Positions 21,001 through 64,000 of a stretch of 64,000 bases of DNA are shown here, one piece after another. A program made the position numbers. Each line of letters opens with the position of its first letter. Within the stretch, counting starts at the first letter, position 1. This DNA comes from Callorhinchus milii (taxonomy: Eukaryota), in the NCBI RefSeq assembly GCF_018977255.1, contig NW_024704805.1, positions 62,001 to 126,000 on the forward strand. The letters run 5' to 3'.

Positions 21001-24000
21001 CAATTGATTTCAAAGCGAAAGTTGTGGAGCCACGTAACGTCAGCAGTTTCTCAGATATCTCTGCCCAAGTAAGTTGAAAGTTTACTTCCCGTCACTTTCC
21101 GCTCTTGATTTCTGGGTTAGAGCGGTTTGGATACAATACACTAGTTTTCTAGCATAATTTATGACTGCAAGTGATTGTACTGTACGATTGATTCTGATGA
21201 ATAACGCTTCATATTTTAACGTTCATTTGTTGTAAAATATGTGTCTGACACATTTGAAAACCAATCACCATGCTGATGATTATCCAAACCAAATTGAGAG
21301 ATATAATAATAATCCTTGCATTTGGGACGTTTCAATGCGCTTGAGAGGCTATAAGTTAAATTGCAGTGACTGTGTGTTTTTGTGGGATAAAAACAACAGC
21401 TAATTTGGTCTAACGTTTTGTCCTGCCGAGAATCGATCGAAGGCCCTGTCGTCTGTGAGGCGGGTGCTTCAACCATTGATCTACATTAACCCCAATATGT
21501 TTTTGTACAGACGGCTGTTACACACGCAACACTGTGCTCGCCGTACAGAAGTATGTTGCGGTGTCCGACACCGGCACGCCTTGGATTGATAGCCTGCTTC
21601 TGTTATCTTTTACAACCGTCGAAGCCCTTATCCTGTCCTTCACATTTACCTCACTTGTTCCCAAAATCAAAAACAGGATAGAGCCGTTTCTATACTGTTT
21701 GTACCATTGAAAGAAAGAGTTGGACACAGTGGTGGTGCACTCCACAGGTACATTTCCTTTTTCATTCTCTGACAAGGTCCGAGTTCTCTGTGACACCTCG
21801 TTTTCAGNNNNNNNNNNNNNNNNNNNNNNNNNNNNNNNNNNNNNNNNNNNNNNNNNNNNNNNNNNNNNNNNNNNNNNNNNNNNNNNNNNNNNNNNNNNNN
21901 NNNNNNNNNNNNNNNNNNNNNNNNNNNNNNNNNNNNNNNNNNNNNNNNNNNNNNNNNNNNNNNNNNNNNNNNNNNNNNNNNNNNNNNNNNNNNGAGAAAG
22001 CCTGGGAAAGACAGTCAGACGGAGAAATTGGGCAAGAGTATAAAATAAAGTGCAGTGACTTTGTGTTTTGTGGGAAAGACTGAGAGATTGACTAAGAGAG
22101 AGACATAGGGTGAAAATACATTAGAACATGTATGTACATTGCTTTTGTGGGAGAGACTCAGAGAGAGAGAGAGATAGGTAGAGAGCGAGGGAGAAAGTGG
22201 GAGAGAGGGGACGAGAGAGAGAGAGAGAGAGTGGGAGAGGGAGGGAGAGAGACGAAGATAGACGGAGATAGAGATGGAGGCGAGAGGGAGAGAGACATCG
22301 ATACAGAGAGAGACTCAGGTAGACTCAGAGAGAAAGATTGCGAGAGATTCAAAGAGACTGAGATAGGCTAAGAGACACTGAGAGAAAGACAGAGAAGGTG
22401 AGAGTCTCATACCACACTTACATAAGAGGGAAAACATTATATTCAAAATAATACGCGTTGCATTGAAACTCCGCTTCATCCTCAAATCTCGAATCAAAAT
22501 CTCTGATTGAAATGCAACCAGAAATCAGCAAAAGGCTGCAAAAGTTTACAAAATTTGTCGAACGCCGTTAACGTTGTAGGTTATAATTATATTCTCGGTG
22601 ACGGCTTCACTATCTGCTCACTCCATGTATATTTGTTTGTGCTAAATTCATTCGCCAATCGACTAACACCAGGGCTCCTATTGATCGATATGTCAACAGA
22701 GGCGTTTGTTTGGATGAAGAAAACTGTCCCAACATTGCTCCCTGCTCGAGAAGTGAACACTCGCCCTTTCCCTTANNNNNNNNNNNNNNNNNNNNNNNNN
22801 NNNNNNNNNNNNNNNNNNNNNNNNNNNNNNNNNNNNNNNNNNNNNNNNNNNNNNNNNNNNNNNNNNNNNNNNNNNNNNNNNNNNNNNNNNNNNNNNNNNN
22901 NNNNNCTCCGTCTATCTCTCTCAATCTCCGTCTATCACGCTCTCTAAGTCTCTCTCACAGACTCTCTCTACAAACGATAATCTCCAGCACTTTCTCCTTG
23001 ACATATTTCCAGAGAGCCTGAGGATAGACTTGAGGCTCGACCACCAATAGTGCGCGGAATTAAGGAGTCGAGCAGGTCACCATGGCTTTTGATGGTCCCA
23101 GATGATCCGGGTTTATTTCCAGGAAAGGGCGAAATATTAGGCACGTTTCCGTAATCGACGCCGAGGTTCCTGCAGCAGTAATATGGAAGCCGCTTATTAG
23201 TCGATTTAGGGATCGCTTTCTGGTGGAGATAATCCCTTCATATTAATAATGATAATTCTTCTCAACCCATGGTTGTACGTGGGACACGGCCGCGCGCAAT
23301 TCGGTGCCACGTTTCGCCCAAAAATTACAGAGTCAATTCATTTTACAGGTTATGGTGTGAAGCGTTTGAGATATTTTCAACAACAACAACAAACTTACAT
23401 TTATAGAGCCCTTCCATGTCGGGAGAACGTCCCAAAGCGCAGATTTTCAAAACATGAGAAGTGCGCGTATCAAATCCAAGGATTATTGTTATTGATGAAA
23501 TTGGAAGTAGAATTTGCATTATTTAATTCTCACCCACTGATAATGATAACAGTATAATAATATAAGAGTATTATTATTATATTATTATTTTTCCTGCCTC
23601 AGAGACCTCCTGACTCTGTACCAACCTACTCGATCCCTCTGTTTGGAGATCTCCTTCTGCTTCACATTCCCTGCTTCGCCTACCCCACCATTAGTGGGTG
23701 AACCTTCAGCCACTCCACCAAAAAACTTTCGGTGCAGTCCCACCGTCTGGCCCCCTCACTTGACCGATCTAAAGACAGTCTATTCCCACCTTGTTGTCAG
23801 TTACCCTACTTCCCGACAAATACACCATCCGCACCCACACTACACACCCATCCCCCCCTCTCCCCAATAAGTTCTTTTCACATCCTCACAAGGAGGACCA
23901 GTGACGTTGCAATGAATGTGGCACAGCGCAATATCAACTCCTGTTGGCAATAAATTGGGAATGCAATTTTCAAGTTTAATATGAACGCAGTGTAAACCAC

Positions 24001-62227: not shown

Positions 62228-64000
62228 CAGCGTTGCAGGGGATAGTACATGTATTCACTTCTCGAGCAGAGAGCAATGTTGGGATTGTTTTCTCATCAAC
62301 ACAATCGCCTCCGTTTACATATCAGTAAACAGGAGACCAGGTGTTAGTCGATTCGTGAATGAATTTAGCACAAACAGATATACAGGAAGTGAGCAGTCAG
62401 TGAAGGCGTCACCGAGAATATAATCATAACCTTCACAGCTCACGGCGCTGGAAAAACGTTTCTAACCGTTTATCCACCTTTAGGTGATTAACCTTTGCAC
62501 TTCAACCCAAAAAAATTAGGTTAGAGTTGAGAATGAAGCAAAATATCAAGGCAACATTTATTATTTTGAGTATAATGACATCATTCTTGTGTAAGTAGGG
62601 AATGACGCTCTCTCTCTCACTGTATCTTTATCTCAGTGACTCTCAGTGAATCTCAGTCAATCTCTCTCTCAGTCTCTCCTTCAAAAAACAACGTCCCTAC
62701 ACATTATAATATATTTTCCTCCTTAGTCTTTCTATCTGTTCTCAGTCTATTTCAAAATATAAATTATTGGTCTTGGCTATGAAACCGGCTGCCACTGGAT
62801 TTGGTCATGTTATTCCTTCTCTCCATGCCCACTGCATCCATGTCTGCAGTCTCTCTTCCCAAACCATGTCTGCAGTCTGTCTATGATTACAGTGGTGGGA
62901 CATCACCTTGTTGACGAGTATCAACAAGATAATAATAATCCCTCCAAAAAAACCAAAAAACAATAATAAAAAAAAATTGGGTCATTTTCAATCTACGACT
63001 GTTTGTGGGACATTGCTGTGCGCAATTGGCTGCCGCGTTCGCCCACAAATATACAGTCAATTCACTTTACAGTGTGTTCTGTGAAGCGCTTTGGGACGTC
63101 CTCCCGACGTGAAAAGCGCTATATCAAATGCAAGGATTATTATTATTATTATTATTATTATCTCCCTTAGTCACTCTATTAATGTCTCCATCAAATCACA
63201 AAGTCCCGACACTTGATAATGTATTCACTCTCAGTCTTTCTGTTCCCTTCTTTCAGTCTTTCTCTCGCTCAGTCTCTCTCTCTAATAACAAGAATAATTG
63301 TTAGTAATATTATTATCATCACAGGTACTTTGGCTGACAGCGATGTATCACAGAGACCCCAGACCGTGACACAGCTTGAAAATGGAGACGTATCCATGGA
63401 GTGCACCACCACTGAGTCGGGTCCAACTTTTCAGTGGTACATACATGATGGAAACGGCTCCATCCTGTTCTTGGTTTTGGGAGAAAGAGACATAACAGTG
63501 AAGGACAGGGTAAGAGCTTTGGCTAATACAAAACAGAGAAGCTGCACTCTAACAATCCAACACGTGCGAGTGTCAGACACCGCCACTTACTTCTGTGCGG
63601 ACAGCACAGTGATGTGTGTCTAAGAGGGACCTGTACGAAAACATGCTGAGGTTACTGGAGCTCAAGGTTTAAAGCACTCGCCTCGCAAACGAGAGACCTG
63701 GGTTGATTCCCGGCAGGGCAAAACATTGGACATGTTTCCTTACTCCTTTTGCTGAATCCTGTAGCTCAGTCGTTAGGGCACTCGCTTTGCAAGCGAGAGA
63801 ACTGAGTTCAATTCCAGGCAGGGCGAAACCTTGGGCAAGTTGCCTTACCCCAGACGCCTAATAATAATCCCTCCAAAAACCAAAAACAATAATAAATCGG
63901 TTATTTTTAATCTCCGACTGTTTGTGGGACATTGCTGTGCGCAATTGGCTGCCGCGCTCGCCCACAAATGTACAGTTAATTCACTTTACAGTGTGTTCTG

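What the first reader, a model, noticed from the sequence alone, without database searches (positions are those of the whole stretch)
21498..63643. Inverted duplication of a GPCR + TCR V unit
Seen: GPCR (27.0-31.5 kb, -) lies upstream of leader/V (22.5-21.5 kb, -), and GPCR (57.5-59.0 kb, +) lies upstream of leader/V (62.5-63.6 kb, +). The two V genes and leaders are the same family, and non-coding sequence at about 22.6-23.2 kb aligns in reverse with about 61.6-62.4 kb. Both pairs look intact despite clear divergence. Inference: an old inverted duplication retained as a unit, possibly with shared regulation.
[Added by the scan's program, not by the reader: the finding's places include an assembly gap (unread letters, written N; its length is only estimated) at 21808 to 21993, 22776 to 22905, 37559 to 37863, 50384 to 50408, 62000 to 62141. 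Whether the letters on both sides are continuous or in frame is not known: test that first.]
Basis: partly seen in the sequence, partly recalled or inferred. Interest (0 to 1): 0.65.

Follow-up and report, generated by a model that had tools for sequence, protein, structure and literature searches.

The report
Inverted TCR V repeat beside older GPCRs
Two T-cell-receptor V gene segments in a cartilaginous-fish TCR locus are a real inverted repeat of about 2.4 kb, but the GPR139-like receptor genes beside them diverged much earlier, so this is ordinary V-cluster turnover rather than one duplicated two-gene unit.

Summary
Both GPCRs are two-exon, GPR139-like class A receptors with open frames. 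Both V segments have a split leader and a 23-bp-spacer RSS.

The V units form a significant reverse-complement repeat: 21408-23755 against 63731-61177, 63-77% identical, E down to 1e-86. They share a SINE fragment at the same site, and the two V segments are sisters among 13 V domains in the window.

The repeat stops about 1.3 kb upstream of each leader. No homology was found in the 3.3 kb and 2.2 kb that lead to the GPCRs, or upstream of the first GPCR exons; one marginal intron hit was set aside. The ages also differ:
- GPCR pair: dS 1.34 (0.97-2.16).
- V pair: dS 0.39 (0.22-0.62).
- Non-coding arms: distance 0.27-0.51.

A single unit duplication is therefore not supported. Order, orientation and spacing still suggest an older GPCR-V module whose V part was later homogenised or replaced.

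Caveats:
- The acceptor and first 9 nt of V_A's exon lie in an N run.
- GPCR_A uses a GC donor.
- The inverted orientation rests on an unverified scaffold join at 50384-50408.

The spacer holds a NAR-TcR V, so this is a cartilaginous-fish TCR delta/alpha V cluster.

The parts
31387..31456 (-). GPCR_A exon 1 coding part: ATG, 23 codons and 1 nt (phase 1), followed by the donor GCAAGT (a GC-AG intron)
27930..31386 (-). GPCR_A intron (3457 nt). It holds SINE pieces and an orphan V-promoter-like relic at 30885-30788
27013..27929 (-). GPCR_A exon 2 with stop. Pfam 7tm_1 E 8.7e-21; best solved relative is GPR139. The model is 328 aa by arithmetic; the exons were not joined
23756..27012 (.). Intergenic DNA between GPCR_A and arm A. 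It has no homology to its counterpart in B and holds about 1.2 kb of tandem arrays (24867-25551, 25560-25824)
21408..23755 (-). Arm A of the inverted repeat (2348 bp): far upstream block, N run 22776-22905, promoter-like block, leader, intron, V exon, RSS and a partial SINE head
22480..22775 (-). V_A promoter-like block. This is the best conserved part of the arms (83-88% in 22726-22576). A shared CGTCA...AATATAAT motif lies about 110 nt before the ATG
22422..22479 (-). V_A leader exon: 19 codons and 1 nt, donor GTAAGT
21537..21807 (-). Readable part of the V_A V exon. The acceptor and about 9 nt are hidden in the N run 21808-21993. It carries the V-set domain Cys, Trp and YFC residues
21498..21536 (-). 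V_A RSS: CACAGTG, 23-nt spacer, ACAAAAACA
57538..57610 (+). GPCR_B exon 1 coding part: ATG, 24 codons and 1 nt, donor GTGAGT
58103..59007 (+). GPCR_B exon 2 with stop. Pfam 7tm_1 E 5.8e-16. The model is 325 aa by arithmetic; the exons were not joined
59008..61176 (.). Intergenic DNA between GPCR_B and arm B. It has no homology to its counterpart in A and holds an orphan V-promoter-like relic at 60387-60447
61177..63731 (+). Arm B of the inverted repeat (2555 bp), with the N run 62000-62141 at the place homologous to the N run in arm A
62533..62590 (+). V_B leader exon: 19 codons and 1 nt, donor GTAAGT. The intron 62591-63324 holds a SINE copy at 62930-63155
63325..63604 (+). V_B V exon. Pfam V-set E 2.5e-12; the best solved relatives are mostly TCR alpha chains
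63605..63643 (+). V_B RSS: CACAGTG, 23-nt spacer, ACGAAAACA

Best explanation
The window is part of a cartilaginous-fish TCR delta/alpha V cluster, and two GPR139-like class A GPCR genes are embedded in it. V_A and V_B are complete germline V units: promoter-like block, split leader, V exon and 23-RSS. They share a common ancestor at about 0.3-0.5 substitutions per site and now lie head to head, 37.4 kb apart. The two GPCRs are much older paralogues (dS about 1.3) under purifying selection (dN/dS 0.33).

The most likely history has two layers. First, a GPCR-then-V module arose early and was copied. Later, only the V part of the two copies regained common ancestry by recombination, either gene conversion between the arms or unequal crossing-over among several such modules. 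This left a sharp edge at 23755/61177. The opposite orientation came either from the copying itself or from a later inversion whose near breakpoint lies in the LINE-rich stretch 49.8-57.5 kb.

In function the genes are independent. Each V would be transcribed from its own promoter and joined by RAG through its 23-RSS. V_B would join by inversion if the D/J/C genes lie beyond the low-coordinate end. The GPCRs are ordinary two-exon receptor genes that happen to sit in the cluster, as olfactory receptor genes do among the 5' TRAV genes of mammals.

Shown: the anatomy, the repeat, the two ages and the sharp edge. Inferred: the module, the recombination step, the promoter role and the mode of joining.
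For: Repeat. Reverse-complement blocks have E 2e-29 to 4e-81, and oriented BLAST gives up to 8e-86. They are unique in the window apart from a SINE fragment at the homologous place and relative orientation in both arms (A 23279-23443, B 61435-61610), plus a partial SINE head after both RSS.

Sister V segments. Support is 98/97 among 13 V rows.

Two ages. GPCR exon 2: 300 codons, 48% aa and 60% nt identity, dS 1.34 (CI 0.97-2.16); all four quarters have dS of at least 0.97. V exon: 89 codons, 53% aa and 73% nt identity, dS 0.39 (CI 0.22-0.62). 0 of 2000 bootstrap pairs overlap. The arms' Jukes-Cantor distance is 0.27-0.51.

Sharp edge. There are no blastn or nhmmer hits between A 27012-23756 and B 59008-61176, or upstream of exon 1, while the control block scores 5e-86.

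Older module.
- Both GPCRs lie on the same strand as their V and upstream of it.
- Both GPCRs have the same phase-1 intron position in TM1.
- The distance from GPCR stop to V ATG is 4534 nt in A and 3526 nt in B. In A it falls to about 3350 nt once the A-only tandem arrays are removed (arithmetic).
- There are only two GPCRs in 64 kb against 15 V-like loci.

Locus identity. A NAR-type V lies at 39750-40067 and a leaderless V with a CDR1 cysteine at 36354-36809. These are the hallmarks described in PMC1845163 (passages).

Promoter role. Weak copies of the upstream block lie upstream of other V segments: 46313-46209, 43399-43324, 15725-15675, 34367-34238.
Against: - Gene conversion needs good homology when it happens. 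If the arms were already as diverged as the GPCRs, conversion would be hard, so continuous homogenisation or crossing-over among closer copies must be assumed.
- No other GPCR-V module could be examined.
- Similar spacing could be chance.
- dS near 1.3 is close to saturation and imprecise, and the V exon has only 89 codons.
- The relative orientation depends on the scaffold join at 50384-50408.
- The promoter role, the expression of any of the four genes and the use of the GC donor are untested.
Confidence: 0.45

Rival explanations
1. Independent events. The two GPCRs are old residents of the V cluster. Later a 2.4-kb V unit was copied, in inverted orientation or before an inversion, and by chance landed a few kb downstream of the other GPCR on the same strand.
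For: The ages differ and no linking homology exists. V-block duplications of similar identity (70-84%) are frequent in this window, for example 3601-5064 with 45209-46645 and 13534-13939 with 18004-18410. These show that V units are copied without GPCRs.
Against: With 15 V-like loci and 2 GPCRs in the window, it is a small-probability coincidence that both members of one sister V pair are the first V downstream of a GPCR, on its strand and at similar spacing. My rough estimate is a few per cent. The case was picked after the fact, which weakens this argument.
Confidence: 0.25
2. One old inverted duplication copied GPCR and V together, and both copies have simply diverged since.
For: The two units have the same order, strand relation and gene structure, and similar spacing.
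Against: Neutral divergence should be equal along one duplicate. It is about 3.4 times higher in the GPCRs than in the V exons and the non-coding arms. The DNA between GPCR and V, and the DNA upstream of GPCR exon 1, are unalignable. The GPCR introns gave one marginal hit that I set aside (E 5e-4 at 0.6 bits). The V-upstream 1.3 kb, which includes a SINE fragment, aligns at 55-88% apart from one poorly aligned stretch near 23474-23374.
Confidence: 0.1
3. One duplication of the whole unit at the age of the V arms. Afterwards one GPCR was overwritten by gene conversion from a distant member of the large GPR139-like family, and the intergenic DNA turned over.
For: The Atlas shows several large 'probable GPR139' clusters in chordates (82, 154 and 71 members), so donors may exist. 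The intergenic DNA holds copy-specific tandem arrays and SINE pieces.
Against: It needs both exons, which lie 0.5-3.5 kb apart, to be replaced, together with loss of all homology in more than 2 kb on either side. All four quarters of exon 2 are equally old, so no conversion edge is visible inside the gene.
Confidence: 0.1
4. The inversion is an assembly artefact. The block 50409-64000 was placed in the wrong orientation, so the two units are really direct repeats in a one-directional V array.
For: 14 of 15 V-like loci are on the minus strand and only V_B is on the plus strand. The switch of strand falls between 49754 and 57538, a stretch that holds the N run 50384-50408. Nothing that I found spans that gap.
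Against: Blocks of V genes in both orientations are real, and are used, in other TCR alpha/delta loci (Atlantic salmon, PMC8559430, passages). The two contigs to the right of 50408 agree with each other across 62000-62141. No positive sign of misassembly was found.
Confidence: 0.12

Closest known systems
Olfactory receptor genes interspersed among the 5' TRAV genes of mammals (OR10G2 between TRAV1-1 and TRAV1-2, OR4E2 between TRAV1-2 and TRAV2 in human; Olfr1507-1509 between TRAV1 and TRAV2 in mouse; PMC4574546, passages)
   Same: Class A GPCR genes lie between V segments of a TCR alpha/delta locus. V segments of one subgroup (TRAV1-1 and TRAV1-2) alternate with paralogous GPCRs.
   Different: The GPCRs here match only Pfam 7tm_1, and among solved structures GPCR_A is nearest to GPR139 (B was not searched against them). 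They are not the olfactory receptor family. They have two coding exons. One unit is inverted. I could not test whether the arrangement is homologous to the mammalian one or merely parallel.
Oppositely oriented V segments in antigen-receptor loci (human TRDV3 and TRBV30; the block of 29 inverted TRAV in Atlantic salmon; PMC4574546, PMC8945572 and PMC8559430, passages)
   Same: A V segment with an intact RSS faces the opposite way from its neighbours. Such V segments are used through inversional joining.
   Different: The position of V_B relative to D/J/C is unknown, because no J or C lies in the window. Its use is untested.
Birth-and-death block duplication in V clusters, and partial gene conversion between duplicated genes (general knowledge, recalled)
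   Same: Several V-containing blocks in the window are 70-84% identical. One part of a duplicate appears younger than its neighbour, with a sharp edge.
   Different: Here the younger tract is the V unit and the older part is an unrelated receptor gene. The recombination event itself is inferred, not shown.
GPR139 (orphan class A receptor; solved structures 7vug and others)
   Same: GPR139 is the best solved relative of GPCR_A exon 2 (E 1.8e-10). The nearest Atlas clusters for both genes are named 'probable GPR139' and are 325-328 aa long, which matches the 328 and 325 aa of the models.
   Different: The similarity is distant and the motifs are variants: DRH or DRF in place of DRY, and NT..Y in place of NP..Y, read from the translations. 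Orthology to GPR139 proper is not shown. These look like members of a lineage-expanded side family.

Membership tests
Class A (rhodopsin-type) GPCR, GPR139-like | Match to the 7tm_1 profile over its whole length | tested here: met
   Exon 2 of A: E 8.7e-21, profile positions 2-260 of 260. Exon 2 of B: E 5.8e-16, positions 2-260 of 260. No other Pfam family matched at E<=0.01.
Class A (rhodopsin-type) GPCR, GPR139-like | Nearest characterised relative is GPR139 | tested here: met
   For A, the PDB search gave 7 sequences at E<=1e-5. The best two are GPR139 chimeras (1.8e-10) and the other five are vasopressin V2 receptor. B was not searched against the PDB. The Atlas places both genes nearest the same 'probable GPR139' clusters, score 0.98; these are leads only.
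Class A (rhodopsin-type) GPCR, GPR139-like | One-to-one orthology with vertebrate GPR139 | not testable with these tools
Germline TCR alpha/delta V segment | V-set Ig domain with the two canonical Cys and the Trp | tested here: met
   Pfam V-set E 1.4e-08 (A) and 2.5e-12 (B). The residues are read in the translations. For B, most of the PDB best hits are TCR alpha chains, with some antibody fragments.
Germline TCR alpha/delta V segment | Split leader: leader exon, intron, then acceptor a few codons before the V domain | tested here: inconclusive
   B is complete: ATG at 62533, GT at 62591, AG at 63323-63324, phase 1. A has the leader and donor (22479-22420), but its acceptor lies in the N run 21808-21993.
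Germline TCR alpha/delta V segment | Recombination signal with a 23-nt spacer right after the V exon | tested here: met
   Both have CACAGTG, a 23-nt spacer, and ACAAAAACA (A) or ACGAAAACA (B).
Germline TCR alpha/delta V segment | Lies in the TCR alpha/delta locus | tested here: inconclusive
   No J or C exon is in the window. Support comes from a NAR-TcR-type V and its leaderless partner V in the same array.
Inverted segmental duplication of a GPCR + V unit | Reverse-complement, colinear homology in non-coding DNA | tested here: met
   Met for the V unit only: 21408-23755 against 63731-61177.
Inverted segmental duplication of a GPCR + V unit | Homology continuous from the GPCR to the V | tested here: not met
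   blastn (word 7, E<=0.01) and nhmmer (E<=10) found nothing between A 27012-23756 and B 59008-61176, or upstream of exon 1. One marginal intron hit (E 5e-4, 0.6 bits) overlaps a repeat.
Inverted segmental duplication of a GPCR + V unit | Equal neutral divergence of all parts | tested here: not met
   dS is 1.34 for the GPCR pair against 0.39 for the V pair; 0 of 2000 bootstrap pairs overlap.
Inverted segmental duplication of a GPCR + V unit | Orientation established independently of scaffold joins | not testable with these tools
   The N run 50384-50408 lies in the stretch where the strand switches, and no element spans it.
Olfactory receptor genes embedded in the TRA locus | The GPCR belongs to the olfactory receptor family | tested here: not met
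   Only 7tm_1 matched. No olfactory-receptor profile was reported at E<=0.01.

The most novel reading that the evidence does not exclude
GPR139-like receptor genes and one V subfamily form an ancient, repeatedly propagated GPCR-V module in chondrichthyan TCR delta/alpha loci. This would parallel the olfactory receptor genes among mammalian 5' TRAV genes. It would mean that clusters of singly-chosen receptor genes have been linked to the V region of this locus since early jawed vertebrates, or have been recruited there more than once, perhaps because both exploit the same chromatin environment.
Probability: 0.1. Interest if true: 0.6.

Novelty: new member of a known kind. Interest (0 to 1): 0.3.

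Why it matters
If the two-layer history is right, this is a clear small example of mosaic ancestry in an antigen-receptor V cluster. A V unit was homogenised or replaced next to much older neighbouring genes, and one V faces the opposite way and would have to join by inversion. The embedded GPR139-like genes recall the olfactory receptor genes in the mammalian TRA locus. A genome-wide survey could show whether that resemblance is shared ancestry, convergence or chance. For annotation, the window gives gene models for two GPCRs, two V segments and a NAR-TcR unit. None of this opens a long-standing question by itself.

Tried and rejected
1. Third GPCR copy or relic. tblastn at E<=50 and an HMM of the two exon-2 proteins against all 856 six-frame ORFs found nothing below E 0.08 besides the two genes.
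2. Faint homology between GPCR and V. blastn with word size 7 and nhmmer found nothing. One intron hit (E 5e-4 at 0.6 bits) overlaps a repeat, and I do not count it.
3. An element spanning the gap at 50384-50408. Two homologous LINE reverse-transcriptase fragments (50797-51524 and 55362-56145, both minus strand) lie to its right. No match reaches or crosses the gap.
4. Rfam, at gathering thresholds. It returned only four tRNA-like matches, which are SINE heads.
5. Literature on GPR139-like genes in shark TCR loci.
   - 'GPR139' with 'shark': 4 papers, none on the subject by title or abstract.
   - 'GPR139', 'gene family expansion' and 'cartilaginous', at least 2 of 3: 72 papers, and none of the 12 listed holds GPR139.
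   - A search on TCR loci of cartilaginous fish found no such annotation among 12 listed.
   - One search was badly aimed and gave nothing useful.
   - These searches are narrow. I claim only that I found nothing.
6. Not done. The exons of the GPCR and V models were never joined. Searches used single exons and lengths come from arithmetic. No structure or complex was predicted, because the profile matches answered the question.
The genome-contig collection (bacteria and archaea) was not used because it is irrelevant here.
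Full report
**What the window is.** It is 64 kb, 42% G+C, with six N runs. An HMM built from five V segments of the window found V-like domains in 16 of 856 six-frame ORFs at E<1e-3. The five seeds match by construction. The 16 ORFs form 15 loci, 14 on the minus strand and one, V_B, on the plus strand.

One locus, 39750-40067 (minus), matches shark VNAR domains in the PDB. 27 of the 60 rows shown are named VNAR or new antigen receptor, ranks 2-7 among them, with E about 1e-13; rank 1 is an antibody construct. 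This V has a Cys in the a-b loop, FYRR in place of WYRK, and a 22-spacer RSS. About 3 kb downstream lies a V with a splice acceptor instead of a leader and a Cys in CDR1 (36354-36809). These are the hallmarks of NAR-TcR V and its supporting delta V as described for elephant and nurse shark (PMC1845163, passages; PMC3457774, passages).

I therefore take the contig for a cartilaginous fish's TCR delta/alpha V cluster, not human. No J or C exon is in the window.

**The N runs, tested first.**
- 21808-21993. The left flank (21807) aligns to B 63334. The right flank (21994-22101) aligns weakly to B 63264-63161. The run replaces what in B is 69 nt: the polypyrimidine tract, the AG acceptor and the first 9 nt of the V exon. 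Order and orientation hold across it. V_A's acceptor and frame entry cannot be known.
- 22776-22905 and 62000-62141. These lie at the same homologous place in the two arms, next to GA/CT-rich DNA. The flanks are colinear on both sides (22772 with 62239; 22914 with 61962).
- 37559-37863. Minus-strand V segments lie on both sides of it.
- 50384-50408. This run lies inside the stretch (49754-57538) where the strand of the genes switches. Nothing that I found spans it. The word 'inverted' therefore rests on that scaffold join.

**The four genes.**
- GPCR_A: exon 1 at 31456-31387 (ATG, 23 codons and 1 nt), donor GCAAGT, acceptor at 27930, exon 2 at 27929-27016, then the stop.
- GPCR_B: exon 1 at 57538-57610 (24 codons and 1 nt), donor GTGAGT, acceptor at 58102, exon 2 at 58103-59004, then the stop.

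Both introns are phase 1 at the same place in TM1. Exon 2 of each matches Pfam 7tm_1 over the whole profile (E 8.7e-21 and 5.8e-16). The best solved relative of A is GPR139 (1.8e-10). The Atlas places both genes nearest the same 'probable GPR139' clusters of 328 and 326 aa. GPCR_A depends on a GC-AG intron, and no in-frame GT donor is nearby (by eye).

- V_A: leader 22479-22422, donor GTAAGT, readable V exon 21807-21537, RSS 21536-21498.
- V_B: leader 62533-62590, intron 62591-63324 with a SINE at 62930-63155, V exon 63325-63604, RSS 63605-63643.

Both RSS have CACAGTG, a 23-nt spacer and an A-rich nonamer. V_B's best solved relatives are mostly TCR alpha chains, with some antibody fragments and one delta chain.

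**The repeat.** Self-BLAST gives four colinear reverse-complement blocks:

| Arm A | Arm B | Identity | E-value |
|---|---|---|---|
| 21408-21807 | 63731-63334 | 74% | 5e-68 |
| 22356-22760 | 62658-62251 | 77% | 4e-81 |
| 22914-23371 | 61962-61491 | 66% | 2e-29 |
| 23445-23755 | 61488-61177 | 71% | 2e-34 |

The arms are 2348 and 2555 bp long and 37.4 kb apart. Searched against the whole window, the near-upstream and V-exon blocks of arm A hit only arm B. The same blocks of arm B also hit GA/CT-rich DNA and SINE heads. The far block also contains a fragment of the window's tRNA-Ala-derived SINE, at the homologous site and relative orientation in both arms. Both RSS are followed by the same partial SINE head. 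These elements were therefore there before the copies separated.

In a tree of 13 V rows, V_A and V_B are sisters (98/97). They are 55% identical and at most 34% identical to any other V. Three of the 16 ORFs (4102-4257, 9774-10202, 33288-33584) were left out of the tree as too weak or too short.

The best conserved stretch of the arms (83-88%, A 22726-22576) lies 100-250 nt before the leader ATG. It carries a shared CGTCA...AATATAAT motif. Weak copies lie upstream of other V segments, and two orphan copies lie at 30885-30788 and 60387-60447. I read it as the V promoter, which is an inference.

**Does the repeat include the GPCRs?** In the oriented comparison the GPCR exons align, exon 2 at 62.6% over 949 columns and exon 1 at 79% over 53 nt. 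The alignment ends at the stop codon. No homology was found in these places:
- between A 27012-23756 and B 59008-61176;
- upstream of exon 1;
- in the introns, where I set aside one hit of 0.6 bits that overlaps a repeat.

nhmmer with E<=10 agrees, while the far block used as a control gives 5e-86.

Divergence was measured with Nei-Gojobori counts and the Jukes-Cantor correction in my own script:

| Pair | Codons | Identity | dS (95% CI) | dN/dS |
|---|---|---|---|---|
| GPCR exon 2 | 300 | 48% aa, 60% nt | 1.34 (0.97-2.16) | 0.33 |
| V exon | 89 | 53% aa, 73% nt | 0.39 (0.22-0.62) | 0.80 |

0 of 2000 bootstrap pairs had V at or above GPCR. All four quarters of the GPCR have dS of at least 0.97. 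The arms' non-coding distance is 0.27-0.51. The V unit and the GPCRs therefore have different ages, with a sharp edge at 23755/61177.

**What still speaks for a link.**
- The window holds only two GPCRs, and no third copy or relic.
- Each GPCR is followed on its own strand by one member of the same sister V pair.
- The distance from stop to ATG is 4534 nt in A and 3526 nt in B. In A it falls to about 3350 nt once the A-only tandem arrays (24867-25824) are removed.

This is weak and was noticed after the fact, but it makes pure coincidence unattractive.

**Reading.** My best account (0.45) is an older GPCR-V module whose V part later regained common ancestry, by gene conversion or by unequal crossing-over among such modules. 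The rivals are:
- independent events (0.25);
- a young unit duplication with one GPCR overwritten from a third paralogue (0.1);
- cutting across all of these, a wrongly oriented scaffold block (0.12).

I found no support for shared regulation.

**Comparison with what is known.** GPCR genes between V segments are known from mammals. Olfactory receptor genes lie between TRAV1-1, TRAV1-2 and TRAV2 in human, and between TRAV1 and TRAV2 in mouse (PMC4574546, passages). OR10G3 is the usual 5' border gene of the locus (PMC8945572, table passage). The genes here are not olfactory receptors by Pfam.

Oppositely oriented V segments are also known: TRDV3, TRBV30, and a block of 29 TRAV in Atlantic salmon, of which 13 of the 14 functional members were expressed. 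Block duplications of 70-84% identity are common in this window. The finding is thus a new instance of known kinds of events.

I found nothing in print on GPR139-like genes in shark TCR loci (searches; listings only). Those searches were narrow, and supplements were closed.

**Left open.** The paired genome-wide phylogenies, the synteny in other chondrichthyans and the search for further GPCR-V units could not be done. They are the decisive tests.

Noticed in passing
window 39750-40067 (-), 36354-36809 (-), 35389-35673 (-): A NAR-TcR unit lies in the spacer between the arms. The NAR-type V matches VNAR structures (E about 1e-13), has a Cys in the a-b loop, has no Trp in the WYRK motif, and carries a 22-spacer RSS. 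About 3 kb downstream is a leaderless supporting delta V with a CDR1 Cys and a 23-RSS, plus a partial copy of that V at 84% aa identity. The N run 37559-37863 lies between the two V segments, where the NAR D and J segments would be expected.
   Followed up: partly
window 10514-10830, 10876-11110, 17367-17684, 28339-28665, 54714-54948, 62930-63155, 63754-64000, 2815-3128 (inverted): A SINE family of about 320 bp has a tRNA-Ala-like head (Rfam tRNA and ARAGORN hits at 10517-10588 and 63755-63826). Copies are 83-94% alike. One lies in the V_B leader intron. Older fragments are shared by both arms.
   Followed up: partly
window 2457-8305 and 44614-49687; also 3437-4224 / 42206-42976 / 45206-45848; 12606-14690 and 16717-19207: Large direct block duplications of V-containing DNA (70-83% identity) show that the cluster grows by tandem block copying. 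The inverted V pair has about the same identity as these.
   Followed up: no
window 22776-22905 and 62000-62141: The N runs in the two arms sit at the same homologous position, beside GA/CT-rich DNA. This suggests one inherited hard-to-read simple repeat rather than two unrelated gaps.
   Followed up: partly
window 30885-30788 (-) and 60387-60447 (+): Orphan copies (67-73% identity) of the V promoter-like block lie inside the GPCR_A intron and downstream of GPCR_B, with no recognisable V behind them. They may be relics of lost V units.
   Followed up: partly
window 24867-25551 and 25560-25824: Tandem arrays with 27-bp and 26-bp units (C/A-rich), about 1.2 kb in all, occur only in the DNA between GPCR_A and V_A.
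   Followed up: no
window 50797-51809 (-) and 54945-56310 (-): Two homologous LINE reverse-transcriptase fragments fill the stretch where the strand of the genes switches. This stretch is a candidate breakpoint region.
   Followed up: partly
window 31381-31386 (-): The only in-frame splice donor of GPCR_A is GCAAGT, a GC-AG intron. GPCR_B has GTGAGT at the same place.
   Followed up: partly
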